Assembly: GCA_001789395.1 (NCBI GenBank)
Contig: MFZK01000022.1
Span: forward strand, 6,921-70,920
Reading direction: 5' to 3'
DNA length: 64,000 bases
From: Candidatus Roizmanbacteria bacterium RIFCSPHIGHO2_02_FULL_37_13b
GTDB lineage: Bacteria > Patescibacteriota > Microgenomatia > UBA1406 > HO2-37-13b
Under the pieces are notes generated by a model that searched no databases, was not told the origin of the DNA, and worked only from the letters and a program-made list of their open reading frames with translations. The translations under genes were made by a program, and so were the position numbers. How positions within the stretch are numbered: position 1 is the first letter of the stretch; the number at the start of each line of letters is the position of its first letter. Below, piece by piece: positions 1 to 53,617 of this stretch.

Positions 1-350
1 TCAACGAATTTTCGTAAAGATAAAACCGGATAACCTTCCTTAGCTTCCTCAACTACGACTTTTGCAGCGACTGAATCACCTACCTTCAAATAAGGTAAAA
101 ACGTAGCTAGTTCTTTTGTCTCATATTCTCCCAATACTGCGAAAGATTTCCAGCCTATGTCAAAAAGTACTTGTTTTCGATCAATTGAGATGACTTTGGC
201 TTTGACTTGATCTCCTTTTTTAGGTGGATGAATTAAATGTTTTTGAAGCAACTGCTCCATCGTCGTGGATTTTTTTTTGCTAGGGTGCGGCGCACTACTA
301 TCGGGTGTTTTAGAGACTGTTGAAGTATCTTTTTTTATTTTCTTTGCCAT
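1..350 (-). CDS. S1 RNA-binding domain protein (ribosomal protein S1-like), C-terminal part cut by window edge
   Basis: Own minus-strand translation from ATG at 348-350: MAKKIKKDTS...GDQVKAKVISIDRKQVLFDIGWKSFAVLGEYE...GDSVAAKVVVEEAKEGYPVLSLRKF, an S1/OB-fold-like pattern. AGGAGG (plus-strand CCTCCT at 363-368) lies upstream. Absent from the ORF track because it runs off the window. Confidence 0.6.
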   Translation of the reverse strand, partial: MAKKIKKDTSTVSKTPDSSAPHPSKKKSTTMEQLLQKHLIHPPKKGDQVKAKVISIDRKQVLFDIGWKSFAVLGEYETKELATFLPYLKVGDSVAAKVVVEEAKEGYPVLSLRKFV

Positions 351-423
351 TTCCGGAAATGTCCTCCTTTTTTGCTTTCAAGTGAAAGATAATATACCAA
401 AAATAGCTCTAAAAAACAAGTGA

Positions 424-1663
424 ATACTTGTTACTAATTGTGCACAGGTCAGCACATGGTATACACTTTTCCGATCGAGATAGATATATCCGTTACCGAC
501 AACGTTGTCTAGAATTGTTTGGGTACGACTATTATCAGTTACCAAACATTATCCATGACAACTGGCATCCATTTAGACTATCAAGAACTGAGAAAAACCT
601 CTCCTAAAGCGGCACGGCAGGCGATCCTTTCGATCTTGAAAAGCACCAATGGTAATATTGCCGAAACCGCTCGTGTCCTCTCCGTTACCCGAAAAACCAT
701 ATACAAAGCACTCCGTAAAAAGAGTGAGGGATCACTTATCGACTCCAGTCGTGCTCCCCACATGGTTATCAACAAAACACCTGCTGATATTGAGCAGCAC
801 GTGGTTGATCTTAAAACAAAGACCAATTATGGTCCGGAACGACTTCATGCTGAACTTGTTGAAACGACAGGCATTGATCTTTCCATACACACCATCAGAA
901 ATATTGTCAGACGAAACAGAGACAAGATCAAAACAAAACGACATAAACCTAAAAAAGCCTCTCCTCGTCAGTTTGTTGACTGGTACACAGCCAAAGCATT
1001 TGAGATTGTACAGATCGATCTGAAGCATATTGTTGATCAGAAGGCACTTTCTGAAAAACAGATTAGCCATATATATGCTCATGATCTTCCGCTGTATCAA
1101 TGGGGAGCCTTAGATGTTACGTCACGTTTCAAACTTATCGGCTATTCGACCGAGAAAACATGGACAAATGGTCTGTGTTGGTTTCTCTGGGTAACCAGTT
1201 GGTTGAGGAGTCACGGCGTGACGAGTCAAATCATCTACACGGTAGATCACGGGGTTGAGTTTGGTGGAGACTGTTGGTGGAAGATTGCTGACCTTAAAAA
1301 ACTCTTATCTGGTTTTGGCTGTAAACTCATACAAAATCACAAGAAATGTCCTCAGGAGAATGCACATCTTGAGAGGTCACACCGTACTGATGATGATGAG
1401 TTTTACATTCCAAGAATTCTTTCAATCACCACCAGAAAAGAGTTTTTTACTGAAGCGATGAATTATATCTACTATTACAACAATATTCGTAAACACGCCA
1501 GCCTTGATAAAGATACCCCATATGTGGTTTTACATCAGCAGTTACCGATGATTGATGATACAATCAGATTTGTACCACCAATATTCTTAGACAAAGTGGC
1601 TGTAGATTTAGGAGCATGGAGTGGATACCATGTGCTGGCTAATCACCATACTTGTTACTAATT
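424..1663 (+). mobile_element. Insertion sequence, IS481/IS3-superfamily-like, single DDE transposase
   Basis: A 16-bp direct repeat ATACTTGTTACTAATT occurs at 424-439 and 1648-1663. Subterminal inverted repeats CAGCACATGGTAT(A/C)CAC occur at 450-466 and, reverse-complemented, at 1621-1637. One rve-type transposase ORF lies between them, and the region is more GC-rich than its flanks. Confidence 0.7.
555..1661 (+). CDS. DDE (rve/integrase-core) transposase with N-terminal HTH
   Basis: The ORF track gives 519..1661 with a TTG start; the first ATG is at 555. HTH-like segment NIAETARVLSVTRKTIYKAL. DDE candidates: QIDLKH, TVDHGVEF, AHLERSHRT. The C-terminal YNNIRKHASL is typical of IS481/IS3-type enzymes. 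Confidence 0.8.
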   Translation: MTTGIHLDYQELRKTSPKAARQAILSILKSTNGNIAETARVLSVTRKTIYKALRKKSEGSLIDSSRAPHMVINKTPADIEQHVVDLKTKTNYGPERLHAELVETTGIDLSIHTIRNIVRRNRDKIKTKRHKPKKASPRQFVDWYTAKAFEIVQIDLKHIVDQKALSEKQISHIYAHDLPLYQWGALDVTSRFKLIGYSTEKTWTNGLCWFLWVTSWLRSHGVTSQIIYTVDHGVEFGGDCWWKIADLKKLLSGFGCKLIQNHKKCPQENAHLERSHRTDDDEFYIPRILSITTRKEFFTEAMNYIYYYNNIRKHASLDKDTPYVVLHQQLPMIDDTIRFVPPIFLDKVAVDLGAWSGYHVLANHHTCY

Positions 1664-3178
1664 CTCTTTACTTCGATATTGCAAGGCTTCGGCAATAGCA
1701 GTTTTCTCAATTTTATCTTTTGAGCTCAAATCCGATATCGTTTGGGCGATCTTGATGATTTTAAAATATCCCCGTGCTGATAATCCTAATCGTGATATAG
1801 CCAGTTTAAGTAATTTAGTCGCATCTTCTGTCATATGACAATATTTTTTTATATGAGCTACAGTCATTTCTCCATTTGTTTTTACATTACAGTCGATTAA
1901 CCGCTTACTCTGATGAAGTCGTGACTTAATGACACGATCTCTAATTTTTTCGCTGCTTTCGCTCACAAATTCGGAAGTTAACTTATCCTCCTCAACCGGC
2001 GGAACATCTATATGGATATCGATCCGATCCAGAATCGGTCCAGAGATTCTTTTTTTATATTTTGAAATTTGAAGCAGCGAACAATGACAACTTTTTTTTG
2101 GGTGACCTAAAAACCCGCATTGACAGGGATTTGAAGCTGCCAAGAAAATAAATCTTGCTGGAAATGTCACTGATCCACGCGCTCGTGAAATCGTAACAAC
2201 ACCATCTTCCAATGGTTGCCGCAATGCTTCCAAGGTCGATCTGGAAAATTCAGGAAACTCATCCAAAAAAAGAACCCCCCGATGGGCAAATGTAATTTCT
2301 CCGGGAGTCAATTTATTTCCGCCTCCGACTAACCCCACGCGAGAAATGGTGTGATGGGGAGCGCGAAATGGTCTTTGAGTTATAAGCGTTGATCCATAGC
2401 CGCCATTAACCACTGAATAAATTTTGGTGACATCAATTATTTCTTCTTCTCGCATTATTGGCAATATTGAAGGAAAAGCCCGTGCCATCATCGTCTTACC
2501 CGCGCCGGGCGGACCTTTAAGATGGACATTATGAAAACCGGCGGAAGCAATTTCCATAGCTCTTTTTGCGTTTTCTTGACCTTTAATATCACTGAAATTA
2601 TTCTCATATTTTTCAATCGTAGCGGCTTTTGATAAATCTGTCATTGGTTGTTTTTTAATTAATTTGAGATTATTTAAGTGAAGAATCAGATCAAGCAATG
2701 TCTTGACCGGATAAACATTGACTCCTTCTATTATCGATGCCTCAGAAGCATTGCCATCAGGGACAAAGAGATTAGTAATTCCTTTTTTGGCTGCCAGATA
2801 GGCTATTAATAAAACACCAGGGACTGGATGAATCACACCATCTAGTGAAAGTTCTCCGACAAGAATGCTGTTTCTCAAAAAACCATTGTCGACAACTCCT
2901 GATGAGGTCAAAATTCCAATCGCAATAGGTAGATCAAAAAGAGATCCTTCTTTTGGAATATCTGCCGGTGCCAGATTTACGACAATTCTTGAGCCAGGCA
3001 CTTCGTAGTTTGAATTATAAATAGCAGTCCTAACTCTCTCCTTTGATTCGTCAATTGCTTTATTAGGTAATCCAACAATTGTTAAACTTGGAAAACCGCG
3101 TGATGCCACATCAACTTCAACTTTGATTGATACCGCTTCTAGACCGATAGTGGCTGCTGATAAAACCTTTGATAACAT
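1658..3178 (-). CDS. comM: Mg-chelatase-like AAA+ protein YifB/ComM
   Basis: N-terminal Lon-like ChlI domain (MLSKVLSAATIGLEAVSIKVEVD). Walker A GPPGAGKT, Walker B VLFLDEF, and a C-terminal Mg-chelatase subunit ChlI tail. Confidence 0.85.
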   Translation of the reverse strand: MLSKVLSAATIGLEAVSIKVEVDVASRGFPSLTIVGLPNKAIDESKERVRTAIYNSNYEVPGSRIVVNLAPADIPKEGSLFDLPIAIGILTSSGVVDNGFLRNSILVGELSLDGVIHPVPGVLLIAYLAAKKGITNLFVPDGNASEASIIEGVNVYPVKTLLDLILHLNNLKLIKKQPMTDLSKAATIEKYENNFSDIKGQENAKRAMEIASAGFHNVHLKGPPGAGKTMMARAFPSILPIMREEEIIDVTKIYSVVNGGYGSTLITQRPFRAPHHTISRVGLVGGGNKLTPGEITFAHRGVLFLDEFPEFSRSTLEALRQPLEDGVVTISRARGSVTFPARFIFLAASNPCQCGFLGHPKKSCHCSLLQISKYKKRISGPILDRIDIHIDVPPVEEDKLTSEFVSESSEKIRDRVIKSRLHQSKRLIDCNVKTNGEMTVAHIKKYCHMTEDATKLLKLAISRLGLSARGYFKIIKIAQTISDLSSKDKIEKTAIAEALQYRSKEN

Positions 3179-3405
3179 GCAGAATGAATCATAAATATAT
3201 CAGTGAGTTTTTTCTACGGATTATAGTCATCAATTAGATTAATTTAGCGTTTCAAAAAGGCCTCTCACCATCTCAAACTCAATAGATGGCAATATTGCGT
3301 CCATAACCGTTAACCATAAAGAAAAACAGGAGCATTTTTTTAATTGAAGCTAAAACTCAAGAAATCCTTACCGTGTGAATTTTTTGGGCACCCAATAAAC
3401 CTCTC

Positions 3406-3648
3406 CTAATTGTATGACCCATACCCAATCCAGTCCAAAAAACGAACACACAAATAAAAAAAACTACCAATCAAAAAACCAATGACAGTAGTTGAAATAG
3501 TTGCTGTAAAGAAAGTGTGAATATTGTTTGATTCGTCGTTTTTTGACTTATTCTTTTTTATGAAATAAAAAAATCCAATACTTAAACGAAATAAACCAAC
3601 AGTCGCTATAGACCACAACACAGGAATCAGCCATTCTAAATCAATCAT
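3406..3648 (-). CDS. small hypothetical membrane protein (2 predicted TM segments)
   Basis: An 80-aa ORF with two hydrophobic stretches; no recognisable family. Confidence 0.3.
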   Translation of the reverse strand: MIDLEWLIPVLWSIATVGLFRLSIGFFYFIKKNKSKNDESNNIHTFFTATISTTVIGFLIGSFFYLCVRFLDWIGYGSYN

Positions 3649-10246: not shown

Positions 10247-10483
10247 ATGAAAAAGCATATTTTAAAGCTAATTAGGCTTTATCAAAAAACTTCTTTTTTT
10301 CACAACTATTTTTTCCGGCTTTTTTATTTATCCGACCGGATTTGCCGTTTCACACCGACTTGTTCAGAATATACCTACCAAGCAGTTGAAAAATATGGGG
10401 TAGTAAAAGGATTAATTTTAGGTTTTAAACGAATTATCCGCTGTCATCCTTTTTCCAAGGGCGGCCATGATCCCATAAAATAG
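10247..10483 (+). CDS. yidD: membrane protein insertion efficiency factor YidD
   Basis: [19 protein letters not shown]...[11 protein letters not shown] is the hallmark of the YidD family. Confidence 0.85.
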
Positions 10484-11746
10484 ATAGATCAAAACTACTA
10501 AATTACCTATCGAGATAATTCTCACAATAAATGGATTGTTGATCATTTGGAATAACATTTCAATCTTCGGTACTGGCCAACTGTGATACATATTTAAAAA
10601 ACTAATTAATGACAAATATACGAACCATATTAATAATTTTCTGTTTTTAATTGACGCTAAAAGCAAAAAAGGCAATGGAAGCATCAGATACCGCTCATGC
10701 ATCTTTGTCAAAAACAAAAAGGCGCTTAGCCCTGACAATGCTGCTGCTAAGAAAATGTTTTCAACTCCAACTTTCTTCCCCTTCAACAGGTTACGAGCAA
10801 TCAACAACAAACAACTTGAAAATAATAAATATCCCCAAGCCCTATATGAAATATTTAAGATGAATGGTGCAGTGTCTTTTATCCCCTGAAAGTAAGTGAT
10901 AAGTACCCAGAAATTAAATGCACCATTGGTCACATATGGCAGACTTTGTTTGGTAAGAATCTTCTCAACAAAAACAACATAAGGTGCAAATAAATAATTC
11001 AAATTTACAAACGGAAGAAAAGAAATCCAAAAAATTATATTAGTAATAATAAATGCATAAATAATTTTCTTAAAATTGTTGCTTTTAATAAATAATAAAA
11101 CGTAAACAGGAATAAATACCAAAATTGTGGGTTTGATTAATATGGACAAAACGAAAAAAATACTGCTTAATAAAGTTCTTTTCAAATAAAACAGAAAGTA
11201 AAAAGATAAAATTACAAAAAAAATAGGAATTACATCAATCTGACCCCAGAGACTGCTGTTATAAAAAAACGCTGGATTAAAAAGGATTAAGCAAGCAATT
11301 ATTACAGGTATTTTTTTGTCTTTTGGAATCATTTTTTTGGCAGTCTTGTATGAAACAACTGCCAATCCCAGATCTGCGGCAATCGCTGGTAATTTAAAAA
11401 TAGCGGCCAGAAAAGACCGAGATTCGATAAATAAAACCAGTTTCGAAGGAAATATAGGAAATGTGACATTTAACCACCAAGTTAGATTGTAGATTATAGA
11501 TTGTAGAGGGTAGATAAAATAAAAAATAAAGAGCGATAGAGGTGGATAATTGGGAAATTTACTGGCAAAGCTTTCGGACGATGGCACATAATAAAAATTG
11601 CTAAAACCTCTGCTCCATAAATCATGAGCCCAAACTATGTGATTGTTGACGTCAAAGCTGAAATCCAGAAAAAGAAGAGCCAAGCGAAGTAATAAACCCA
11701 AAATAAATACAATATATAATGGCCTTAATTGCTTATGTAATTTCAT
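10418..11746 (-). CDS. polytopic membrane protein, GT-C-like glycosyltransferase candidate
   Basis: A 442-aa protein with more than 10 TM segments and an architecture like ArnT/PMT/DUF2029-type enzymes. The function is inferred only. Confidence 0.4.
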
Positions 11747-32035: not shown

Positions 32036-32109
32036 CGGGGCGTAGTTCAGATGGCCAGAACGCTGGGCTGGGGGTCCAGAAGTCGCTGGTTCGAGTCCAG
32101 TCGCCCCGA
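32036..32109 (+). tRNA. tRNA-Pro (anticodon GGG)
   Basis: Hand-folded cloverleaf: acceptor CGGGGCG/CGCCCCG, D stem GTTC/GAAC, anticodon stem CTGGG/TCCAG with loop CTGGGGG, T arm GCTGG-TTCGAGT-CCAGT. CCA is not encoded. Confidence 0.85.
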
Positions 32110-35646: not shown

Positions 35647-36871
35647 GAACGCTGATATAACAATATATACTGTGGTAATAAACGGTAACAAGAATATAGT
35701 CAAATCTTCAGCTCTTTTCTTTATTATTTTTTTCTTTTCATACTTTATTTTTCAGGGTATGATTACATCTCCCAATGAAATTGACAGCTTGAAGCTCCAT
35801 ATCCCAACTGCTCATAAAATTTTAGATGGGAGCATATACAATCCCAAGACTTTCACAAACGACCTGTTTTATTACCCTTGGATTATTGAATATATTTTAG
35901 CCGTATTTATTCTGTTAAAAATTCCTTTAAATTTATATAACGTCGTCGCTACAGGCTTCCTTTTATTGGCAATTTTTAAATTGACTAATTTGGTTATCAA
36001 GGAAAAACAAAATGCGCTTTTTGCTATCTCTTTTTGTTTTTTACCTGTGATTACCCGTTGGCTCAATACTCAAAAAAATGATATCTGGACAGTGTTTTTT
36101 TATATCATCTCAATCTGCATCTTAGAGAAAGGATTGTCGAGCCGCAAGTCTTATTTACTACTTGGGGTAACTTTAGGAGCGGTCGCAGGAGCAAAATATT
36201 TTAGTTGGTTATTTATCATTCCGGTAATTGCTATTTACTATAAACAGTTCACAAACTCCAAAAAAATATCGTTTTTAATTTTAACTTTTTTATCGCTTAG
36301 TTTAATCGGCGGCTCGTGGATCCTTCGCGCATGGTTTTATACCGGCAACCCTGTCTATCCTTTAAATATTGCTATCGTGAGTGGATCTGGTGATGAATTT
36401 TTTAGATTTAATTTAATTAAATATATTTTATTTTTTAAGAACGGTTTATTCATTTTTATTGAAAAATTGTTTTCTGAATATCTTTTTTGGGCATTGGCAC
36501 TTTTTAGCATTCCTTTTTTTACGCTACACATCAAACACAAAAATAAATCTCTCTCTGACTCAATCAAACGAATAGCAAGTCTTGGATTTATAAACTTTGT
36601 CATTTTTCTATTTCTTCCCACTTGGGTTGATAATTTGACCTCAAGCATGCGTTACGGATATTATTCGATCATTCCACTTGCAATTGTCTCATGGTGGCTA
36701 TTAATTAAACACAAAACTCAATTTTGGGCATATACTTTGTCTTTTTTGACCATATTTACCGGGCTAACTAATTTTGACTTCCGACCTAAAATCGCATTGT
36801 TTTCTCTAATCGTCTTGTTTGTGGTAATCAAATACAAGAAAGAGCAGAAATTTAATTTTCATGATTCTTGA
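35627..36871 (+). CDS. polytopic membrane protein, GT-C-like glycosyltransferase candidate
   Basis: A 414-aa protein with many TM segments. The start is uncertain and may be an internal Met. Confidence 0.4.
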   Translation: MNICRYKNADITIYTVVINGNKNIVKSSALFFIIFFFSYFIFQGMITSPNEIDSLKLHIPTAHKILDGSIYNPKTFTNDLFYYPWIIEYILAVFILLKIPLNLYNVVATGFLLLAIFKLTNLVIKEKQNALFAISFCFLPVITRWLNTQKNDIWTVFFYIISICILEKGLSSRKSYLLLGVTLGAVAGAKYFSWLFIIPVIAIYYKQFTNSKKISFLILTFLSLSLIGGSWILRAWFYTGNPVYPLNIAIVSGSGDEFFRFNLIKYILFFKNGLFIFIEKLFSEYLFWALALFSIPFFTLHIKHKNKSLSDSIKRIASLGFINFVIFLFLPTWVDNLTSSMRYGYYSIIPLAIVSWWLLIKHKTQFWAYTLSFLTIFTGLTNFDFRPKIALFSLIVLFVVIKYKKEQKFNFHDS

Positions 36872-37866
36872 TTTTCGAGGTATCGCTCAATCTCAAGAGC
36901 CGCAGCTATCCCCATCCCAACCGCAGTACCAGCTTGACGGTAAACATAGTCAACACAATCTCCAGCTGCAAAAATGCCATTTATATTTGTTGAGTATTGG
37001 TATTTAGTATTTAATATTTGATATTTGGTATTTTTGTTAGCAACCATTTCCCAGGCCATTAAAGCTGAGGTTTTAATATAACCTTTTTTATCTAAAATCA
37101 CTCCGCTGTCTTTTAAAAAACCCGTATCAGGTTTATGACCAATTGCTAAAAATAGTCCGTCTGTCTTTAAGATTGATTTATTGTTCAATTGCTTTATTGT
37201 TGTATTATTGTCGGTTTTTATTTTTAATCCTTCAACCCTTTGCTCTCCCAAAACCTCTTCTACCTCACTCTTCCATAAAACTATAATTTTAGGGTGTTTC
37301 AAAACTCGGTTTTGCATAATTTTAGAAGCACGAAATTCACTACGTCTGTGAATGATAAATATCTGATTGGCAAATTTGGTTAAAAATAGAGATTCTTCCA
37401 TTGCTGTATCTCCACCACCAACCACAGCAATCGTCTTATCTTTAAAGAAAAACCCATCACAAGTGGCGCAAGCAGAAACACCCCTACCTCGAAGTCGCGT
37501 CTCTGAAGGCAATCCGAGCCATAAAGCTGAAGCTCCCGTGGTAATAAGAACTGATTTTGCTTTCATTTCTTTACCGGATGATAAATAAATCGTGTGTGGT
37601 TTTTTTGAAAAATCAACATGATCCACATTGTCATTAATAAATCGGGTTCCAAATTTTTCCGCGTGTGATTTATATTTAGAAATTAATTCCGGGCCTAATA
37701 TCGACTCAAACCCCGGATAATTTTCGACATCTGTCGTCAACATTAGCTGCCCTCCTGGGGTTTGCCCCGCTACAACAATGGGATTAAGACCTGCCCGCGC
37801 GGTATAAAGGGCGGCGGCAAGACCAGCCGGACCTCCTCCTATTATAATTACGTTTTCAATTTCCAT
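36859..37866 (-). CDS. trxB: thioredoxin-disulfide reductase
   Basis: GGGPAGLAAALY, redox centre CATCDG, GGGDTAMEE, GIFAAGD. It carries the in-frame heptamer-array insert at 36992-37033. Confidence 0.9.
   Translation of the reverse strand: MEIENVIIIGGGPAGLAAALYTARAGLNPIVVAGQTPGGQLMLTTDVENYPGFESILGPELISKYKSHAEKFGTRFINDNVDHVDFSKKPHTIYLSSGKEMKAKSVLITTGASALWLGLPSETRLRGRGVSACATCDGFFFKDKTIAVVGGGDTAMEESLFLTKFANQIFIIHRRSEFRASKIMQNRVLKHPKIIVLWKSEVEEVLGEQRVEGLKIKTDNNTTIKQLNNKSILKTDGLFLAIGHKPDTGFLKDSGVILDKKGYIKTSALMAWEMVANKNTKYQILNTKYQYSTNINGIFAAGDCVDYVYRQAGTAVGMGIAAALEIERYLENQES
36992..37033 (-). repeat. six tandem degenerate heptamers (coding strand AAATAYY) inside trxB
   Basis: Plus strand: GAGTATT GGTATTT AGTATTT AATATTT GATATTT GGTATTT, 42 nt, equal to 14 codons (TKYQILNTKYQYST). 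Confidence 0.75.
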
Positions 37867-37933
37867 AAGCTAAGGCCATTTTAAACAAGACTCGTTGAAT
37901 TTACAAGATAAAGTTTTTATACTTATAGCCATA

Positions 37934-38332
37934 ATGGAACCATGTGTTTTCTGCAAAATAATATCCGGAGAGATTCCTTGCTATAAAGTCTATGAGGATG
38001 AAAATTTTTTGGGGTTTCTTGATATTACACCAAGGACCGAAGGCCATTGTCTTTTGATTCCAAAAAAACATTATCGTTGGGTTTATTCTGTGCCAAATTT
38101 TGCCGAATATTGGATGGCTGTCCTAAAACTAACAGAAGCCATTCAACGATCATTAAAACCTTTTTTTATTACCTACGTCACTCACGGACTTGAAGTCGCA
38201 CACGCTCACATACATATCATACCCCGAGACCAATCTAATACCCAGTTTGTTCCTCCCATCCTATCCATAAAAAAGGAAAAACTAAAACAAATCGCCTCAT
38301 CTATCCTCAATATCACCACGACTGTTGTATAA
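37934..38332 (+). CDS. HIT (histidine triad) family protein
   Basis: CVFCKII...GHCLLIPKKH...HAHIHIIP. The ORF track starts at 37895; the ATG at 37934 fits family N-termini better. Confidence 0.85.
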   Translation: MEPCVFCKIISGEIPCYKVYEDENFLGFLDITPRTEGHCLLIPKKHYRWVYSVPNFAEYWMAVLKLTEAIQRSLKPFFITYVTHGLEVAHAHIHIIPRDQSNTQFVPPILSIKKEKLKQIASSILNITTTVV

Positions 38333-38373
38333 AATACTAGATACTAAATGCTAAATACCATATACTAACTATA
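38332..38373 (+). repeat. intergenic heptamer array (AAATACT-type)
   Basis: AAATACT AGATACT AAATGCT AAATACC ATATACT AACTATA lies directly after the HIT stop. Confidence 0.65.
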
Positions 38374-38376
38374 TAT

Positions 38377-39183
38377 ATGGAGCAACACGCTGTTCCTAGA
38401 CAAATCACAACTTTTGAATTTAAACTTATTGGTTTTTTAACTATCAAACAATTTGGCTCTTTGGTTTTTTTTGGACTAATTGCAGTTTTTTTATATTTTG
38501 CTGTCCCCATACCAATTGTCAATATTGCTTCCGCCATTGTGTCATTTTTAATCGGTGCGTTTATTGTTTTTGTTCCAATAAATGATCGGCCCGTTGATAT
38601 ATGGATTACGAATTTTTTTAGAAGATTAATTTCACCGTCACAATATTTCTATCATAAAATAAATTCCCCTCCGGATTTTCTAAAAAACGTCTTTATTTAT
38701 CCATCGCCAGACTTAATCGCTTCACATGTCGACGCCCAAAAAAAACTGGCTTCATATTTAAACACAACGGGAAAAGCAGTTGGTAAAGATGTAAAAAAAC
38801 AACAAATACAAAACATAATCTCATCATCAAAGGCAAATCCATCCATTGCGAAAAATCCACCAACGCCGGATACTAAAAACAACGAGGAACAACAAAAGCC
38901 CGTTTCACAATCTGCACCAACGCTATCTGGAGTGGTGAGAAATAGCAAAAACCTTGGTCTTCCAAATATTTTAGTTTATATAAGAGACAAGACGGGACGA
39001 TTAGTACGCATACTAAAAACTAATCACAATGGAGTATTTGCCTCATTCCATTCGCTTCCCGAAGGGAATTATTCTTTTGAAATTAAAGATTTGGGACAAA
39101 AGTATTTTTTTGATACAATGAATTTTGATCTGGGTAAAAACGCTCAAAAACCTTTAAGTTTTTATTCAAAAGAATTGCTGTAA
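38377..39183 (+). CDS. PrgI/VirB3-like membrane protein with C-terminal beta-sandwich (carboxypeptidase-regulatory-like) segment
   Basis: The N-terminal HAVPRQITTFEFKLIGFLTIKQFGSLVFFG plus 2 TM segments resembles PrgI family proteins. The C-terminal SGVVRN...GNYSFEI is CarboxypepD_reg-like. The gene lies upstream of the VirB4-like ATPase. Confidence 0.45.
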   Translation: MEQHAVPRQITTFEFKLIGFLTIKQFGSLVFFGLIAVFLYFAVPIPIVNIASAIVSFLIGAFIVFVPINDRPVDIWITNFFRRLISPSQYFYHKINSPPDFLKNVFIYPSPDLIASHVDAQKKLASYLNTTGKAVGKDVKKQQIQNIISSSKANPSIAKNPPTPDTKNNEEQQKPVSQSAPTLSGVVRNSKNLGLPNILVYIRDKTGRLVRILKTNHNGVFASFHSLPEGNYSFEIKDLGQKYFFDTMNFDLGKNAQKPLSFYSKELL

Positions 39184-39191
39184 AAAAATAA

Positions 39192-39845: not shown

Positions 39846-39850
39846 ACATT

Positions 39851-44179: not shown

Positions 44180-44185
44180 AAATAA

Positions 44186-45360: not shown

Positions 45361-46602
45361 TTACTTAAAGGATAATGAATTTATAAAAGTACAAATTTTT
45401 TTTGCCTCGTCTGGTTTTATATTAATGTGTGTTGGTAAATTAATAAGTCGATGAACCAATTCTTCTGCATTTGGGCAGGAATCGAGTATGTAAAAAAAAG
45501 CGTTAAAATCAGTTTTTATCGGGGTTATTGGCGTACTATACCAATCGCCTAAATATATACCATTTTTTTTGGCTTGGGTAAGGACATGATTTTTGTTATT
45601 GAGTAAAATCGGATATCGTAAAAATATAGTTATTTCATCTCCAAAGTTATCCGATTTAATTAACTTTGTATAAATATCAGCTATTTGCCGACGATGTTGA
45701 TTGAAATCATCAATTTTTAATAGCTGATTTAAGGCTAATTTTGCCAAAAAAGGAGAAAACCGATAATCAATAAATTGAGGCATTTTGCCGATTTTTTCTT
45801 CATTGTATACAGCTTTTGACAACAGGTTTATTTTAAAACATAGCTTGATAATAATCCTTCCAATGATGATAGGATAGAGCAAGAGACTGAAATAATAAAT
45901 TGGATTAAAAAGTAACTGTTTTACTAAAAAAGATTTGGGCGTTTGTTGCAGTTTGTTTTCACAAATAGCGAGTTTTTTAGCTAAAGAAGAGTTTTTGGTT
46001 ACGATAGCGCCACCAAAGACCGATGAAATCATCTTATCCCGACCAAAACTAAAAAAAGCAACGTCACCAAATGAACCAAGTTTTTGTCCTTGATATGTCC
46101 CACCAAGTGAGTGGGCACAATCTTCGATTAAAATTAAATTATTCCTATCGGCGATTTGTTTTATCATCTTAATCTCAGCGGGTATTCCAAAGGTATGTTG
46201 GATGATAATAGCTTTTGTTTTTTGTGATATTTTCTTTCTGAGATCGTCAATATCCATATTCAAAGTTTTTTTGTCAACGTCGACATAAACGGGTTTTAAC
46301 CCGCTCCAAATTATTGAATTTGGCACTGCGACGCAAGTAAGCGCCTGAACGACGATCTCGGATCCTGGTTCTAAATTTAATGATTTTAATAAATAATATA
46401 AAGCCGCACGCCCCGAGGAAAAAACAAAGCAATGTTTAACGTGATAATAACTACAAAACCATTCTTTTAATGTGTTGATGAATTGGTTGTTTTTAGATTT
46501 AAACATTAAAGAAAGGACTTGTTGTAGAGCTAGTGTTACATCGTCGCCTTGGACGTTTGGGGCAAAAGAAGTGGTGATGGGTTTTTTTATCAAGTCAAAC
46601 AT
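45361..46602 (-). CDS. DegT/DnrJ/EryC1/StrS family aminotransferase
   Basis: IEDCAHSLGG, FSFGRDKMIS (PLP-Lys context). Confidence 0.75.
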   Translation of the reverse strand: MFDLIKKPITTSFAPNVQGDDVTLALQQVLSLMFKSKNNQFINTLKEWFCSYYHVKHCFVFSSGRAALYYLLKSLNLEPGSEIVVQALTCVAVPNSIIWSGLKPVYVDVDKKTLNMDIDDLRKKISQKTKAIIIQHTFGIPAEIKMIKQIADRNNLILIEDCAHSLGGTYQGQKLGSFGDVAFFSFGRDKMISSVFGGAIVTKNSSLAKKLAICENKLQQTPKSFLVKQLLFNPIYYFSLLLYPIIIGRIIIKLCFKINLLSKAVYNEEKIGKMPQFIDYRFSPFLAKLALNQLLKIDDFNQHRRQIADIYTKLIKSDNFGDEITIFLRYPILLNNKNHVLTQAKKNGIYLGDWYSTPITPIKTDFNAFFYILDSCPNAEELVHRLINLPTHINIKPDEAKKICTFINSLSFK

Positions 46603-47509
46603 TTTTTTTATCAGATAATAATTCAGTCATACATAAAACGTTATTATTTTTGGGGAAAAGCAGAGCTTTTTGAAGTATATCAACTCTTTTATTTTGACCG
46701 TTGACATCAATATCAAAATCGCACCCAGATGATAATTCAAGATGATCTGATCCAATCCACCCAAAGCCACCGGATTTAAAAGACCTGGCCTTATTGAATA
46801 AATATTCTGACGTTGGATCAAAAACATCTCCTGATGGCATTTTTGCCCATGCGTGCATATTGTTTTGATTATAGCCAAGATAATATCCAAACACCGGTAG
46901 ACATGAAATATTTAAAGCTGACATAAGTGAACAAAACAAAACAACAAATCCACCACAATCAACCGAAGGTTTGACAAGAGTTTCGTTTACAGAATAAAGA
47001 CCATCGATAGGATTGCCATAACTTAACTTAGTAATAACATAGTCATAAACAGCTTTAATATATGCATCTTTTTTTTGATCTTTGATTATGAGCTGGGATA
47101 CAATTTTTTTTATAGCGGTGTTTGTTGAGATGAATTGATTGTTTGGAGTAGGTTTTTCTTGAATGATTATGTTACCTCTTGAAACATTGGGAAGAATAGT
47201 AGCTTTAAAATAATGGGTAACAATTTTCACCTGTTGTGGTTTTAGATTTAACTCAACAACATAAAATTTATTCTTATATAGTTGGTCGGTGCTTATCTCG
47301 CCTTTTTGTGTAAATTTATTGGAAGTGATTATTTGATATGGAGTACTTTGAGGTATCGGGAAAACACAGTGGAGTCTTTCTGATGTTTTACCGTTGTTTG
47401 TAATTGTGACTTTATAATCAATTTGATAGCGTTGTTTTTTGAAATAAGAATTAAGCTTTAGATTTTGGATAAGTTGGTGATACAAAATCAATATGTTTTT
47501 ATTAATCAT
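46595..47509 (-). CDS. transglutaminase-like cysteine protease-fold protein
   Basis: DCGGFVVLFCSLMSALNI...NMHAWAKM...DVFD gives a Cys-His-Asp core. The ORF-track N-terminus (to 47587) is the antisense of tRNA-Ala, so I use ATG 47509. Confidence 0.55.
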   Translation of the reverse strand: MINKNILILYHQLIQNLKLNSYFKKQRYQIDYKVTITNNGKTSERLHCVFPIPQSTPYQIITSNKFTQKGEISTDQLYKNKFYVVELNLKPQQVKIVTHYFKATILPNVSRGNIIIQEKPTPNNQFISTNTAIKKIVSQLIIKDQKKDAYIKAVYDYVITKLSYGNPIDGLYSVNETLVKPSVDCGGFVVLFCSLMSALNISCLPVFGYYLGYNQNNMHAWAKMPSGDVFDPTSEYLFNKARSFKSGGFGWIGSDHLELSSGCDFDIDVNGQNKRVDILQKALLFPKNNNVLCMTELLSDKKNV

Positions 47510-47520
47510 TTGCACGGATG

Positions 47521-47593
47521 TGGACCTGACGGGGGTCGAACCCGTAACCTTCTGACTGCCAGCCAGACGCGCTGCCAATTGCGCCACAGGCCC
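47521..47593 (-). tRNA. tRNA-Ala (anticodon GGC)
   Basis: Minus strand: GGGCCTG-TG-GCGC...GCGC-G-TCTGG-CTGGCAG-TCAGA...CGGGTTCGACCCCCG-TCAGGTCC-A. The G3:U70 identity pair is present. CCA is not encoded. Confidence 0.85.
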
Positions 47594-51001: not shown

Positions 51002-52318
51002 ATGAGAGTGGCTATTTTAGGCGGAGGAATAACCGGTTTGACTGCAGGATATTTATTAGCAAAAAAAGGTCATAGTGTAACAATTTTTGAAAAGGAAAAA
51101 ATTCTTGGTGGTTTGGCTTCAGGATTTAATCCGCCTAACAGCGCCACGTCTGACGTGACTGGCGGATGGGACTGGCCGCTTGAGCGAGCTTACCATCACT
51201 TATTTGCCAATGATGATGATATTTTAAGTTTTGCGAAAGAAGTGGGGTTTGACCAGATTTATTTTCAAGAGCCGATCACGGCGTCTATGTATGAAAAGCC
51301 AAATTACAAAATCCAAATTTCAAATAATAAATTTAATCTTTATCCATTAGATACACCAGTTGATTTCTTACAGTTTCCTCGCCTATCACCTATTCAAAAA
51401 ATACGAGCAGGAGCAATATTAGCTGGATTAAAACTGTCTCCTTTTCTATCGCTTTATGAAAAGCAAACGGCGAAAGAATTTTTAAAGAAAACAATGGGAA
51501 ATGATACATGGAACATCATGTGGGAATCGCTTTTTCGGAAAAAGTTCGGTAAATATGCGGGAAATATTTTAGCCTCATTTATCTGGGCAAGAATCAAAAA
51601 GAGAACCAAAAAATTAGGTTATATCAGAGGCGGATTTCAGGCATTTGTTGACTATCTAGAAAAAGTAAATAATGAAAAGGGAGTGGTTATTAAAAAAGGA
51701 ACAGGGGTAGGGGATATTAAGAAAACCGGCAATACTTTTGTTGTTAATAGCCAAGAATTTGATTCAGTTATTTCAACGTTACCAACTATGCTGATGACAA
51801 AAATCACCCAAAATATTTTTCCAGACATTTATCTAAAAAAATTTGAAAAGCTGCACTATCTGCATGCGGTTAATCTGATCATTGAATCTAAAGAGCCGCT
51901 TTTTGAAAAAGAATATTGGATTAATGTCTGCTCGGAAGAGCTGCCGATAATGGTATTAGTTCAACACACAAATTTTATCGACAAAAAAAATTACAATGGT
52001 AATCATATTTTATATATCGGTAATTATGTCGATAAAGATCATAAATTATTAAAGATGGGGAATGAGGAAATCTTACATTATTTTCTTCCTTATTTAAAAA
52101 AGATAAATACCAAATACCAAATATTTGATACTAAATACTATTTATTTAAGGCTCCTTTCGCTCAGCCTATCTTTGATAAAGATTTCCTGCAAAACAAGCC
52201 CGATTTTAAAACTCCGGTGAAAAACTTTTTTATTGCCAATCTTGATATGACCTATCCATATGACAGAGGTACCAATTATGCAGTGAAGCTTGGGAGAGAG
52301 GTATCATCTCTTCTTTAA
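51002..52318 (+). CDS. FAD-dependent oxidoreductase (amine oxidase/protoporphyrinogen oxidase-like)
   Basis: MRVAILGGGITGLTAGYLLAKKGHSVTIFEKEKILGG is a dinucleotide-binding fold. The gene carries three embedded repeat/hairpin elements. Confidence 0.65.
   Translation: MRVAILGGGITGLTAGYLLAKKGHSVTIFEKEKILGGLASGFNPPNSATSDVTGGWDWPLERAYHHLFANDDDILSFAKEVGFDQIYFQEPITASMYEKPNYKIQISNNKFNLYPLDTPVDFLQFPRLSPIQKIRAGAILAGLKLSPFLSLYEKQTAKEFLKKTMGNDTWNIMWESLFRKKFGKYAGNILASFIWARIKKRTKKLGYIRGGFQAFVDYLEKVNNEKGVVIKKGTGVGDIKKTGNTFVVNSQEFDSVISTLPTMLMTKITQNIFPDIYLKKFEKLHYLHAVNLIIESKEPLFEKEYWINVCSEELPIMVLVQHTNFIDKKNYNGNHILYIGNYVDKDHKLLKMGNEEILHYFLPYLKKINTKYQIFDTKYYLFKAPFAQPIFDKDFLQNKPDFKTPVKNFFIANLDMTYPYDRGTNYAVKLGREVSSLL
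51130..51166 (+). repeat. GC-rich nested hairpin inside the oxidoreductase CDS
   Basis: TCCGCC-TAACAGCGC-CACGTCTGACGTG-ACT-GGCGGA. CCACGTCTGACGTG is identical to the reverse complement of 17327-17340. Confidence 0.65.
51300..51334 (+). repeat. five tandem degenerate heptamers (CAAAWWN) inside CDS
   Basis: CAAATTA CAAAATC CAAATTT CAAATAA TAAATTT encodes NYKIQISNNKF. Confidence 0.55.
52105..52139 (+). repeat. five tandem heptamers (AAATACY-type) inside CDS
   Basis: AAATACC AAATACC AAATATT TGATACT AAATACT encodes NTKYQIFDTKY. The trxB array has the same unit, strand sense and frame. Confidence 0.75.
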
Positions 52319-53617
52319 TTTCGGCTTATTGATTAAAGCATCAAGAATTTCCCACCGTTTCTTTTTTACCTTGAACGGCACGTCGTCAATCATCACCTTC
52401 GTTGCTGCAGTCATGGGGCGGGAGGAGTAAATATTGACATAGGCCCAGTCAAAATTTATTTGTTTGCATAATTTGACGGTATTTTCAAATTCCGCGTCAG
52501 TTTCACCGCAAAAACCAACAATTATGTCAGTGGTTATTTTGAGATCCGGGATTTTGGATTTTAGATTTGCGACGAGTTTAACAAACTCAGCCGCAGTGTA
52601 CCACCGGTTCATCCGTTTCAACATATTATCATCCCCCGATTGGACGGCAATATGAAGCGCCCGGGAGATATTTTTATTTTGGGCAATGACATCAATCAAT
52701 TCATCACTAAAGTCCCAAGGATTTGATGAAATAAAATTCACATTTTTAAAACCCAGTTTGGCCACATCTTCCAAAAGATATGGAAATAGGGTAGGAATAC
52801 GCATTCGGCCAAGATGTTTGACGAAAATGGGTTTATATTTAGAAATTCTAAATTCGAAATCCGAAGCGCCAAACAAATCCGAATTTTCTAAATTCAAATT
52901 TTCAAACGGTTGTTGTTTTGAATTTTGAATATTAGTATTTTGATATTGTTTCGGATTTTGTGCTTCGTGCTTCGAATTTATAGAAAAGTAGTCTTTTCCG
53001 GGTAAATCCCGCATAACCTGTACATTTTTTTCGCCCAAAATAAGATCAGCCCCATATGAATTAACATTCATGCCGAGTAAAGTCACATTTTCATAACCTT
53101 TTTGTTTAAGTTCAGAACATTCATTGATAATATCTTCGTATGGTCTTGATATTTCCCGGCCCCGGGTAAAAGGGACGATGCAGAATGTACAAAAATTATT
53201 GCATCCGTTGGAGATAGGCACCCAAGCAGATTTTGAATCGGTTCTTAAAGGAACATGATCAAATCCAACTTCTTCAATCGGCATAAACTCGTCAACTGCG
53301 GGCATGATATCCTTTAATCTTTTCAAAAATTTCCCGGTTTTATCTCGATTGGCAACGCCAACCATGCAGCCGGTGACGATAATTTTGATTTTAGATTTTA
53401 GATTTTTGATTTTAGATAGATTATTAACCAAACCATAGACGCGATTTTCAGCAGATTGCCGGACCATACAAGTATTAATGACGATATAATCGGCAGATTC
53501 AACAGTTTTGGCTTTTTTCATGCCACGACCTTCAAGCTCTGTCGATATACGTTCGCTATCAGCGACGTTCTGTTGGCATCCGAATGTCTTTATGAAATAT
53601 TTTTGAGATTTTTTCAT
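52304..53617 (-). CDS. miaB: tRNA methylthiotransferase MiaB (radical SAM)
   Basis: UPF0004 N-terminal domain (FIKTFGCQQN), radical-SAM CNNFCTFC, and a TRAM-like C-terminus. It contains a large in-frame insert at 52841-52985. Confidence 0.8.
   Translation of the reverse strand: MKKSQKYFIKTFGCQQNVADSERISTELEGRGMKKAKTVESADYIVINTCMVRQSAENRVYGLVNNLSKIKNLKSKIKIIVTGCMVGVANRDKTGKFLKRLKDIMPAVDEFMPIEEVGFDHVPLRTDSKSAWVPISNGCNNFCTFCIVPFTRGREISRPYEDIINECSELKQKGYENVTLLGMNVNSYGADLILGEKNVQVMRDLPGKDYFSINSKHEAQNPKQYQNTNIQNSKQQPFENLNLENSDLFGASDFEFRISKYKPIFVKHLGRMRIPTLFPYLLEDVAKLGFKNVNFISSNPWDFSDELIDVIAQNKNISRALHIAVQSGDDNMLKRMNRWYTAAEFVKLVANLKSKIPDLKITTDIIVGFCGETDAEFENTVKLCKQINFDWAYVNIYSSRPMTAATKVMIDDVPFKVKKKRWEILDALINKPKLKKR
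52841..52985. repeat. ~145-bp imperfect palindrome inside miaB
   Basis: The left arm TTCTAAATTCGAAATCCGAAGCGCCAAACAAATCCGAA...ATTCAAATTTTCAAAC aligns with the reverse complement of the right arm TTCTATAAATTCGAAGCACGAAGCACAAAATCCGAA...ATTCAAAATTCAAAAC. The centre is near 52907. Confidence 0.7.
53383..53417 (-). repeat. five tandem heptamers inside miaB
   Basis: Plus strand: TTTTGAT TTTAGAT TTTAGAT TTTTGAT TTTAGAT, encoding SKIKNLKSKIK. Confidence 0.7.

What the first reader, a model, noticed from the sequence alone, without database searches (positions are those of the whole stretch)
36992..37033. In-frame array of six degenerate heptanucleotide repeats inside trxB
- The coding strand reads AAATACC AAATATC AAATATT AAATACT AAATACC AATACTC. 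This is 42 nt, exactly 14 codons (TKYQILNTKYQYST).
- It lies between the GYIK strand and the GIFAAGD FAD motif.
- From memory of canonical TrxB (E. coli: GYIVV...TSIPGVFAAGD), this loop is roughly 15 aa shorter elsewhere.
- The array therefore looks like a tolerated insertion of a simple-sequence element into an essential gene.
- A 7-nt unit keeps the frame only in steps of three units.
- The analogy is Rickettsia palindromic elements, which insert in frame into ORFs.
Basis: partly seen in the sequence, partly recalled or inferred. Interest (0 to 1): 0.65.

Follow-up and report, generated by a model that had tools for sequence, protein, structure and literature searches.

The report
Old heptanucleotide repeat inside trxB loop
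A real 7-base tandem repeat lies in frame in a surface loop of thioredoxin reductase in a Microgenomates (CPR) bacterium; it is an old, conserved tract rather than a recent insertion, and it belongs to a lineage-wide set of such repeats and related palindromic elements embedded in housekeeping genes.

Summary
The array is real. On the sense (-) strand of trxB (36859..37866), bases 37033..36992 read five good AAATAYY units plus a decayed sixth. Lag-7 identity is 0.77 and exceeds every shuffle control. It encodes the coil K278-Y291 of a roughly 20-residue extension of the GYI...GIFAAGD hairpin, which solved TrxRs lack.

It is not a recent insertion. Nearly all Microgenomates TrxBs have an equally long loop. 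A 68%-identical orthologue carries the same tract in the same register without gaps.

The loop is a hotspot for heptanucleotide arrays. Relatives carry perfect arrays of other units (AATTACG, AAATCCA, AAAATTG). One orthologue pair differs by exactly three units (21 nt).

Period-7 arrays are strongly enriched in the window (8 observed, 0.45 expected) and in Microgenomates loci. AAATAYY arrays recur in another window gene, in a spacer, and in CarB of another genome.

The array has no hairpin, so it is not RPE-like. However, a true RPE-like ~140-nt palindromic element, with arms built of heptamers, sits in frame in this window's MiaB, in a relative's TrxB and twice in a CarB.

Best reading: a slippage-born heptanucleotide microsatellite, filtered by reading frame and peptide chemistry.

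The parts
36859..37866 (-). trxB, thioredoxin-disulfide reductase, 335 aa, intact ORF. Motifs present: GGGPAG10, CATC133, GGGDTA150, HRR173, GIFAAGD297.
   Evidence: ORF list. TIGR01292 363.8 bits, cutoff 343.45. PDB TrxRs E about 1e-79. Motifs.
36992..37033 (-). The heptanucleotide array: AAATACC AAATATC AAATATT AAATACT AAATACC AATACTC. It covers the third base of K278 to the second base of S292.
   Evidence: TRF period 7, 4.9 copies, 88% matches. Lag-7 identity 0.77. Shuffle p from 5e-5 to 2e-3.
36979..37083 (-). Lineage-specific long loop G262-N296 between the GYI strand and GIFAAGD. It is 16-20 aa longer than in solved TrxRs and is shared by Microgenomates TrxBs.
   Evidence: Gaps in PDB alignments. 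Loop lengths in 109 homologues. Alignment A1.
37036..37068 (-). Proximal half of the loop: predicted helix S267-N277 (SALMAWEMVAN) carrying the clade-conserved W.AWE-type motif. It has no 7-nt periodicity.
   Evidence: AF2 model me56174fee03d, DSSP helix 267-277, block pLDDT 78-89. Conservation.
36994..37035 (-). Distal half of the loop: predicted coil K278-Y291, block pLDDT about 73-78. This is the segment encoded by the array. Its 3' end encodes the conserved YQY(S/A)T motif.
   Evidence: DSSP coil 278-291..
38332..38373 (+). Sister array with the same unit, AAATACT AGATACT AAATGCT AAATACC ATATACT. It fills the 44-nt spacer between the HIT-family gene and the next gene. It is partly conserved in the syntenic spacer of relative L081.
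52098..52139 (+). Sister array with the same unit (AAATACC AAATACC AAATATT TGATACT AAATACT). It lies in frame on the sense strand of an FAD oxidoreductase gene (51002..52318) and encodes INTKYQIFDTKYY.
52841..52981 (-). Palindromic element of about 140 nt whose arms are heptamer-periodic. It is in frame in the MiaB-like gene (52304..53617) and lies within the 85 residues that stand where Bacteroides MiaB has about 7.
   Evidence: (DNA fold z=-6.4).
53383..53417 (-). Heptamer array (sense-strand unit AAAATCT/AAAATCA; TRF 5.3 copies, 90% matches, score 58). It lies in frame in MiaB (LSKIKNLKSKIK) in a region of conserved length.
52549..52568 (-). Short heptamer array (sense AAATCTA AAATCCA AAATCC) in frame in MiaB (ANLKSKI).
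51294..51333 (+). Heptamer/14-mer array (CAAATTA-type) in frame in the FAD oxidoreductase gene (NYKIQISNNKF).
11483..11514 (-). Heptamer array (sense CAATCTA-type) in frame in a 442-aa membrane protein ([11 protein letters not shown]).

Best explanation
The tract is a degenerate heptanucleotide microsatellite with consensus AAATACC, on the sense strand of trxB. It encodes the unstructured distal half of a roughly 20-residue extension of the FAD-domain hairpin, GYI...GxFAAGD. That extension is a clade trait of Microgenomates-type TrxBs.

Shown:
- The periodicity is real and operates at the DNA level.
- The loop and the tract are shared, in register, with diverged orthologues, so the array is old.
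- The same loop in other lineages holds arrays of different units, some perfect.
- One orthologue pair differs by exactly three units.
- Period-7 arrays are strongly enriched in this window and in related genomes. Most lie in ORFs with the A-rich strand as sense.

Inferred mechanism:
- Slipped-strand mispairing, which favours 7-nt units in many bacteria, creates, expands and homogenises AAAT-N3 arrays.
- Inside ORFs only stop-free units survive, and only length changes of three units (21 nt, 7 aa).
- Mostly the orientation that yields hydrophilic K/N/Q/T/S/Y/I/P peptides survives, and only in solvent-exposed loops.
- The trxB array is such a survivor, now partly fixed by selection on the loop (the YQY.T motif).
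- It most likely has no catalytic role and does not act as a phase-variation switch.
For: - Reality of the periodicity.
- Loop is clade-wide: 107 of 109 homologues have loops of 23 aa or more, with conserved flanks.
- Orthology with P0002: no gaps in the loop. Array codons are 74% identical at nucleotide level against 65% gene-wide. Third positions are 64% identical against 39% gene-wide.
- Other units at the same site: AATTACG x4 (L084), AAATCCA x4 (L087), AAAATTG/T/C x4 (L088), AAATTCA x3 (L086).
- Three-unit step: P0116 against P0118, 21 nt.
- Peptide-level test: array-like 10-mers occur at 0.017 per position in the loop against 0.0007 elsewhere. There were 0 hits in 10 rounds of residue-shuffled loops.
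- Period-7 enrichment in the window: 8 observed against 0.45 expected, and 4 against 0.05 at the stricter score.
- Period-7 density: 17.8 per 100 kb in 13 CPR loci (10 Microgenomates-type, 3 other CPR), against 3.8 in non-CPR loci and 2.3 in low-GC non-CPR loci.
- Same unit elsewhere: 13 AAATAYY pattern matches against 0.72 expected, and an in-frame array in CarB of L091 encoding QIPNTKYQIL.
- Stop avoidance: in P0088 the array reads AAT TTA exactly where a perfect AAAATTG unit would give an in-frame TGA.
- Strand census: 20 of 27 genic arrays have the A-rich strand as sense.
- AF2 model: the array-coded residues 278-291 are coil with lower pLDDT.
- Literature: heptanucleotide SSRs are the most abundant long SSR class in many prokaryotes, attributed to polymerase slippage (PMC4692102 and PMC4679880, both summarising Mrazek et al. 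2007).
Against: - No copy-number polymorphism was seen. Members of 90% clusters with perfect arrays have identical loops, though each cluster has only 2-4 members.
- No close relative of this genome exists in the databases (best hit 71% aa identity), so slippage at this array is not demonstrated.
- The same few units (AAATACY, AAATTCN, AAATCCN) recur in unrelated genes and genomes. This fits a sequence-specific process or ectopic copying better than unbiased slippage.
- Some arrays sit in regions of conserved length. The MiaB N-terminal array aligns without gaps to 7mjz. That requires length-neutral homogenisation rather than plain insertion.
- The array remains 88% periodic although synonymous sites between orthologues are near saturation. 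Neutral decay does not explain this.
Confidence: 0.68

Rival explanations
1. The array is a remnant (solo arm) of a mobile RPE/MITE-like palindromic element. The element would have inserted in frame into the trxB loop of an ancestor and later lost its second arm.
For: - A family of ~140-nt palindromic elements with heptamer-periodic arms exists. Copies lie in frame in this window's MiaB, in TrxB of L087, twice in CarB of L091, and in intergenic DNA.
- The TrxB loop of P0010 gives a weak nhmmer match to the left arm (E=0.055).
Against: - The trxB array gives no nhmmer hit to the element.
- It has no T-rich partner arm. The only inverted repeat is 16 nt at 81% complementarity, and one arm is the conserved INGIFA coding sequence.
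- The DNA fold is no better than shuffles (z=-0.34).
- Its unit, AAATACY, differs from the element's AAATYCN units.
- Solo arrays of many different units occupy the same loop in relatives.
Confidence: 0.12
2. The repeat is maintained, or was created, by selection on the protein. A tandem heptapeptide (NTKYQIL / NTKYQYS) would serve a lineage-specific role of the loop, for example partner binding or dimer contacts, and the DNA periodicity would be secondary.
For: - The loop is clade-wide with conserved flanks and a conserved YQY.T motif.
- The tract is at least as conserved as the rest of the gene between orthologues.
- No length polymorphism was seen in clusters.
Against: - A peptide repeat predicts 21-nt periodicity, not 7-nt. 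Here successive units are the same heptamer read in all three phases.
- Resampling synonymous codons for the same peptide reaches the observed lag-7 identity in only 0.2% of trials.
- The middle of the loop is not conserved among relatives and holds unrelated units.
- The same array and peptide occur in an unrelated oxidoreductase, in CarB, and in untranslated spacer DNA.
Confidence: 0.08
3. The heptamer arrays are functional nucleic-acid signals. They could be binding sites for a protein that reads heptamer repeats on DNA or RNA (cold-shock-type proteins bind one heptamer each), or translational or transcriptional modulators. The trxB copy would be one such site that happens to be coding.
For: - The same few units recur across genes and genomes.
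- An AAATACY array fills a 44-nt spacer directly upstream of a start codon and is partly conserved in a relative.
- Third codon positions in the trxB array are more conserved than gene-wide, 64% against 39%.
- TAACTGA heptamer arrays in Beggiatoaceae were proposed to act in translational regulation (PMC4679880).
Against: - No Rfam family matches and there is no structure signal.
- Units differ widely among orthologous loops, which argues against a conserved site at this position.
- The third-position signal rests on only 14 codons in A-rich sequence.
- No candidate binding protein was identified.
Confidence: 0.08
4. Chance: an AT-rich genome with K/N/Y/I/Q-rich loops produces such apparent periodicity without any repeat process.
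For: - The window has 35% G+C.
- The TRF score of 40 is below the default cutoff of 50.
Against: - All shuffle controls reject it.
- Low-GC non-CPR loci show no period-7 excess.
- Residue-shuffled loops give 0 hits against 55 observed.
Confidence: 0.02

Closest known systems
Long simple sequence repeats with heptanucleotide units in prokaryotes. Examples: Mrazek et al. 2007 as summarised in PMC4692102 and PMC4679880; cyanobacterial tandem heptanucleotides of Calothrix/Nostoc; GGGAATC in Xanthomonas; TAACTGA in Beggiatoaceae.
   Same: - Head-to-tail 7-nt units.
- Period 7 is specifically over-represented in the genome.
- A few favoured units recur at many loci.
- The units and copy numbers at a given locus differ between related organisms.
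- Slippage is the proposed origin.
- When such arrays lie in ORFs they give a cyclic heptapeptide, as with LSVISYQ for TAACTGA in reverse orientation.
   Different: - The described cases are mainly intergenic. Here 27 of 34 arrays lie in ORFs, in frame, in housekeeping enzymes (TrxB, MiaB, CarB, an FAD oxidoreductase).
- The units here are A-rich AAAT-N3, not G-rich.
- The trxB array is degenerate and conserved in register over deep divergence, rather than hypervariable.
Rickettsia palindromic elements (RPEs) and other in-frame MITEs (PMC10969869).
   Same: - Repeated DNA tolerated in frame inside unrelated housekeeping genes.
- It adds a peptide segment at surface positions.
- The ~140-nt palindromic element found here in MiaB, TrxB (L087) and CarB matches this description well: dispersed copies, 75-83% DNA identity, strong hairpin, conserved encoded peptide, and copies both in genes and between genes.
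   Different: - The trxB array itself is only 42 nt, is not palindromic and has no similarity to that element.
- It is present in register in a diverged orthologue.
- No relatedness to RPE sequences was tested or is expected.
- No transposase or target-site duplication was identified for the Microgenomates element.
Phase-variable contingency loci (non-triplet SSRs in ORFs of Haemophilus, Neisseria and Mycoplasma).
   Same: A non-triplet repeat unit inside a reading frame, so a single-unit change would shift the frame.
   Different: - The units are degenerate (88% matches).
- The gene is a housekeeping redox enzyme, not a surface or restriction-modification gene.
- No frameshifted or length-variant alleles were seen among relatives.
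- The array is stable over long divergence.
Tandem repeats that create disordered protein regions in Borg elements (PMC9879509).
   Same: DNA-level tandem repeats arise in ORFs and add low-complexity, probably disordered peptide segments.
   Different: - The host lineage differs (Borg elements of archaea).
- I read only that paper's abstract, so I did not compare unit lengths.
- Here the unit is 7 nt, so one peptide period needs three units.

Membership tests
Thioredoxin-disulfide reductase (TrxB, TIGR01292) | Whole-protein score above the curated equivalog cutoff, and presence of the redox CxxC, FAD-binding and NADPH-binding motifs. | tested here: met
   363.8 bits against a cutoff of 343.45. 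GGGPAG10, CATC133, GGGDTA150, HRR173 and GIFAAGD297 are present. PDB TrxRs match at E about 1e-79.
Heptanucleotide long simple sequence repeat (LSSR) | Three or more head-to-tail copies of a 7-nt unit, beyond chance. | tested here: met
   TRF 4.9 copies at 88% matches. Lag-7 identity 0.77. Shuffle p from 5e-5 to 2e-3. No equal run in dinucleotide shuffles of the window.
Heptanucleotide long simple sequence repeat (LSSR) | Period 7 is specifically over-represented in the genome or lineage. | tested here: met
   Window: 8 observed against 0.45 expected. CPR loci 17.8 per 100 kb against 2.3-3.8 in non-CPR loci.
Heptanucleotide long simple sequence repeat (LSSR) | Copy number differs between strains or close relatives, the signature of slippage. 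| tested here: inconclusive
   A three-unit difference exists between orthologues P0116 and P0118. No variation was seen within four 90% clusters that carry arrays. No close relative of this genome is available (best 71% identity).
Heptanucleotide long simple sequence repeat (LSSR) | Predominantly intergenic location, as in Xanthomonas, Nostoc and Beggiatoaceae. | tested here: not met
   27 of 34 arrays in the window and Microgenomates loci lie in ORFs of at least 100 aa.
RPE-like / MITE-like in-frame palindromic element | Length of about 100-150 bp with palindromic (hairpin) potential. | tested here: not met
   The array is 42 nt. DNA fold is -3.0 kcal/mol, z=-0.34, with 60 of 200 shuffles folding at least as well. 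The best inverted repeat is 16 nt at 81%. For contrast, the MiaB element gives z=-6.4.
RPE-like / MITE-like in-frame palindromic element | Dispersed copies with sequence similarity beyond a short unit. | tested here: inconclusive
   AAATAYY arrays occur at three window sites and in L091 CarB. The trxB and oxidoreductase arrays are 31/35 identical by my own count, unit by unit, from the sequences. The shared order of unit variants could be chance; my rough estimate is p about 0.05. There is no nhmmer match to the palindromic family.
RPE-like / MITE-like in-frame palindromic element | Presence or absence among orthologues, indicating an insertion event. | tested here: not met
   The same-length loop and in-register tract are present in P0002, P0004 and P0007-type orthologues.
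RPE-like / MITE-like in-frame palindromic element | In-frame read-through that adds a peptide to a functional host protein. | tested here: met
   The ORF is intact and scores as TrxB. The array encodes coil 278-291.
Phase-variable contingency locus | Perfect or near-perfect non-triplet SSR whose unit changes switch the frame, with frameshifted alleles in populations. | tested here: not met
   The units are degenerate. No frameshifted or length-variant homologues were seen. Population reads for this genome are not available, so allele frequencies could not be tested.

The most novel reading that the evidence does not exclude
Microgenomates (CPR) genomes may carry a previously undescribed, lineage-wide repeat system built on A-rich AAAT-N3 heptamers. 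It would have two forms: simple arrays, and ~140-nt palindromic elements whose arms are such arrays.

Both forms colonise surface loops of essential enzymes (TrxB, MiaB, CarB) in frame, always yielding the same peptides, for example ...NSKRFEHLNLENSDLFRNSDLEFRI.

On this reading the clade-specific extension of the TrxB hairpin itself arose from such an array. Arrays would be kept homogeneous by a sequence-specific, length-neutral copying process rather than by plain slippage. This would be a second, independent RPE-like phenomenon outside Rickettsia.
Probability: 0.4. Interest if true: 0.72.

Novelty: new member of a known kind. Interest (0 to 1): 0.5.

Why it matters
The specific array is an instance of a known class, heptanucleotide simple-sequence repeats. 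It is therefore not a new kind of element, and it is not a recent hit on an essential gene.

Its context is what matters:
- In this CPR lineage, non-triplet repeats and a related palindromic element are built into the reading frames of core enzymes and persist over deep divergence.
- This gives a concrete, testable system for how mutational bias creates new loop segments in minimal genomes.
- It may explain part of the length heterogeneity and the low-complexity inserts that complicate annotation and structure prediction of CPR proteins.
- It offers a parallel to Rickettsia palindromic elements in a free-standing bacterial radiation.
- It warns that peptides such as KIQNSKF, NTKYQIP or NYELRIT in metagenomic proteins reflect DNA repeats rather than functional motifs.

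Tried and rejected
These served only as negative controls for period-7 density.
- I looked for steps of 7 aa in loop lengths across homologues. Lengths are broadly distributed (23 to 68 aa, mode 37), so I make no general claim. Only the P0116/P0118 pair shows a clean 21-nt step.
- I looked for copy-number polymorphism inside 90% protein clusters and found none.
- I tested the trxB array for a hairpin or flanking inverted repeat. Nothing exceeded chance.
- I tested whether the trxB array belongs to the palindromic element family by nhmmer. There was no hit.
- I checked whether the oxidoreductase array has a palindromic partner. There is only a 10-nt CAAATATTTG centre and no arms.
- An Rfam scan of the whole window found only a tmRNA and two tRNAs.
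- Viral-contig scans gave 0 hits for the element core and 3 for an AAATACC array pattern. These were not followed, as they are uninformative for this question.
- Literature searches for palindromic or in-frame elements in CPR/Patescibacteria returned no paper holding those terms together. This is absence in that library only.
- I considered telomere-like or templated addition. The units are not cyclic permutations of known telomeric heptamers, and nothing further could be tested.
Full report
**1. Observation**

trxB occupies window 36859..37866 on the minus strand as an intact 335-aa ORF.
- It scores 363.8 bits against TIGR01292, thioredoxin-disulfide reductase, whose cutoff is 343.45.
- It matches solved TrxRs at E about 1e-79.
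- It keeps GGGPAG10, CATC133, GGGDTA150, HRR173 and GIFAAGD297.

On the sense strand, 37033..36992 reads AAATACC AAATATC AAATATT AAATACT AAATACC AATACTC. That is five good units and a decayed sixth.

Formal tests of the periodicity:
- TRF gives period 7, 4.9 copies, 88% matches and score 40. This is under the default cutoff of 50 but over the cutoff of 30 used here.
- Lag-7 identity is 0.77, while other lags stay near 0.3-0.4 except 14 and 21.
- Mononucleotide shuffles give p<=5e-5.
- Codon-order shuffles give p=1.5e-4.
- The same peptide with resampled synonymous codons gives p=0.002.
- Only 2 of 15,019 16-codon windows in the window's long ORFs reach the observed value.

The 42 nt are not codon-aligned. 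They run from the third base of K278 to the second base of S292.

**2. The loop**

Against solved TrxRs the stretch between GYIK and GIFAAGD carries 16 extra residues (6bwt) or 20 (9xub).

However, the closest homologues are 56-71% identical and come from Roizmanbacteria, Woesebacteria and other Microgenomates. Nearly all have an equally long loop.
- 107 of the 109 in which the loop could be delimited have 23 aa or more. The mode is 37 aa and the query has 35.
- The flanks are conserved, of the form GYI.TS..W.AWE ... [FW].YQY.TS.
- Other CPR TrxBs (Doudnabacteria, unclassified Patescibacteria) and non-CPR TrxBs have ordinary gene lengths of 900-924 nt.

An AF2 model (mean pLDDT 85) puts a helix at S267-N277 and a coil at K278-Y291 with lower confidence. 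The coil is exactly the array-coded segment.

**3. Age of the array**

The 35-aa loops of P0002 and P0004 align to the query without gaps.

In P0002 (68% aa identity) the orthologous DNA reads ACA AAA CAC AAA ATA CTC AAT ACT ACA TAC CAA TAT. This is still visibly 7-periodic.

Array codons 279-292 are 74% identical at nucleotide level, against 65% gene-wide. Third positions are 64% identical, against 39% gene-wide.

The tract therefore predates the split of these lineages, and it is not a recent insertion. Synonymous sites are near saturation, yet the window's array is still 88% periodic. This suggests continuing homogenisation or some DNA-level constraint. That point is inference and remains unexplained.

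**4. The loop is a hotspot for heptamer arrays**

DNA for eight relatives was obtained. Lag 7 or 14 is the strongest self-match in all eight loops.

Several loops hold perfect or near-perfect arrays of other units:
- AATTACG x4, encoding NYELRITNYE (L084).
- AAATCCA x4, encoding NPKSKIQNPK (L087).
- AAAATTG/T/C x4, encoding LKIENLKLKI (L088).
- AAATTCA x3 (L086).

In L088 the array reads AAT TTA exactly where a perfect unit would give an in-frame TGA.

The syntenic orthologues P0116 and P0118 differ in this loop by exactly 21 nt, which is three units.

A peptide-level test gave the following:
- It scanned for 10-mers within two mismatches of the cyclic translation of any stop-free heptamer.
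- It found 55 hits in the loops of 14 of 109 homologues, or 0.017 per position.
- The rate elsewhere was 0.0007 per position.
- Residue-shuffled loops gave 0 hits in ten rounds.
- Almost all hits outside the loop fall at residues 212-228, a second hotspot in the NADPH-domain hairpin.

**5. A genome and lineage property**

In the window, period-7 runs number 8 against 0.45 expected from dinucleotide shuffles. At a stricter score they number 4 against 0.05. Only period 14 is similarly enriched.

Array density by group:
- 13 CPR loci (10 Microgenomates-type, 3 other CPR): 17.8 per 100 kb.
- Non-CPR TrxB loci: 3.8 per 100 kb.
- Low-GC non-CPR loci: 2.3 per 100 kb.

The pattern AAATAYY x3 with up to 3 mismatches matches 13 times against 0.72 expected. 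The matches fall in three arrays plus one isolated 3-mismatch match at 26920-26940:
- trxB.
- The 44-nt spacer 38332-38373, which is partly conserved in relative L081.
- An FAD oxidoreductase gene at 52098-52139, encoding INTKYQIFDTKYY.

The same unit also lies in frame in CarB of another Microgenomates contig, encoding QIPNTKYQIL.

Any sense reading of (AAATACC)n gives the same cyclic heptapeptide. The shared peptide therefore needs no frame preference. Only strand matters: 20 of 27 genic arrays have the A-rich strand as sense. That orientation gives hydrophilic peptides.

**6. The RPE analogy**

The trxB array has no hairpin (z=-0.34), no meaningful inverted repeat and no match to the palindromic family.

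While comparing relatives I found a genuine palindromic element of about 140 nt whose arms are heptamer-periodic.
- It lies in frame in the window's MiaB at 52841-52981. It falls within 85 residues that stand where Bacteroides MiaB has about 7.
- It lies in frame in TrxB of L087 and in an intergenic site of L087.
- Copies are 75-83% identical at DNA level.
- DNA folds give z=-6.4 and z=-5.0.

A metagenome scan with its conserved core found nine more loci.
- In-frame copies always use the same frame and give ...NSKRFEHLNLENS[DN]LFR[NA]SDLE[FI]R...
- Two copies sit in one CarB, at exactly the two segments that fail to align to solved CPS structures.
- An eight-copy alignment shows a few compensatory changes in the stem.

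This element matches the description of RPEs and in-frame MITEs (PMC10969869). The library search found no paper linking such elements to CPR.

**7. Mechanism and verdict**

The best-supported reading is that the trxB tract is a slippage-born heptanucleotide microsatellite.
- It lies in a permissive, clade-specific surface loop.
- It has been filtered by reading frame (three-unit steps, stop-free units) and by peptide chemistry.
- It is now partly constrained by the YQY.T motif.
- It is neither a recent insertion, nor a mobile palindromic element, nor a phase-variation switch.

Over-representation of heptanucleotide SSRs in bacteria and the polymerase-slippage idea are already in the literature (PMC4692102, PMC4679880). 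The array is therefore a new member of a known kind.

Three things remain unexplained:
- Why the same AAAT-N3 units recur across genes and genomes.
- How arrays stay homogeneous without length change.
- Whether they share a generating process with the palindromic element.

No copy-number polymorphism could be shown. No close relative of this genome was available to test it.

Noticed in passing
window 52841-52981 (-), within MiaB-like ORF 52304..53617: A palindromic element of about 140 nt with heptamer-periodic arms, inserted in frame. The encoded peptide is ...NIQNSKQQPFENLNLENSDLFGASDFEFRIS. Related copies (75-83% DNA identity) lie in TrxB and an intergenic site of L087, twice in a CarB (L091/L094), and in L090, L093, L095 and L097. 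This is RPE/MITE-like behaviour in Microgenomates.
   Followed up: partly
window 38332-38373 (+): The whole 44-nt spacer between the HIT-family gene and the next gene (the PrgI-like position by synteny) is an AAATACT-type heptamer array ending in TATACTAACTATATAT just before the ATG. It is largely conserved in the syntenic spacer of L081, and its 3' part in L085. It could carry promoter or 5'-UTR signals.
   Followed up: partly
window 52098-52139 and 51294-51333 (+), ORF 51002..52318: An FAD oxidoreductase (NF005560-type) carries two in-frame heptamer arrays. One has the same AAATACC unit as trxB, and I count 31/35 identity to the trxB array. There is no obvious net insertion relative to the family profile (438 against 435 positions).
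   Followed up: partly
window 53383-53417 (-), MiaB N-terminal domain: The best heptamer array in the window (TRF score 58, 5.3 copies, 90% matches; LSKIKNLKSKIK). It lies in a stretch that aligns without gaps to Bacteroides MiaB 7mjz. The array therefore overlays a region of conserved length rather than adding residues, and how this arises is unexplained.
   Followed up: no
window 37179-37211 (-), trxB residues about 219-229: A weak period-8 repeat (TRF score 31; sense CAATAATA CAACAATA ...) in the NADPH-domain hairpin loop. In relatives this loop is the second hotspot for heptamer arrays and for the palindromic element.
   Followed up: partly
window 11483-11514 (-), ORF 10418..11746: A heptamer array (sense CAATCTA-type, 4.7 copies) in frame in a 442-aa polytopic membrane protein with no NCBIfam match.
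   Followed up: no
L091 3007-3040 (CarB ORF 147..3608): An in-frame AAATACY array (CAAATACC AAATACT AAATACC AGATACT) giving QIPNTKYQIL. It appears as a small insertion relative to solved CPS structures and has the same unit and peptide as the window's trxB array.
   Followed up: partly
L084 680-700 and L086 about 1038-1130: In the TrxBs P0120 and P0014, A-rich heptamer arrays flank short GC-rich segments (peptides LPASLREALQTG and PLRISLRSSFAGQA). These may be a second kind of composite insert and were not analysed.
   Followed up: no
window 24200-24597 (-), 32036-32109 (+), 47521-47593 (-): A tmRNA gene (109 bits) and two tRNA genes by Rfam. The tRNA at 47521-47593 overlaps the 5' end of the listed ORF 46595..47587, so that ORF's start is probably further downstream.
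   Followed up: no
window about 37895-44203: The gene order next to trxB is HIT, a PrgI-like gene, a TraC-like gene and a TraG/VirB4-like ATPase, followed by genes in the dnaN and dnaA positions. This order matches relatives L081, L082 and L085. A type IV secretion-like cluster therefore seems to lie next to the likely replication origin region. This is inferred from synteny only; apart from the HIT gene (a sub-cutoff HinT match) and ORF 38377..39183 (no match), the window's own genes were not scanned.
   Followed up: no
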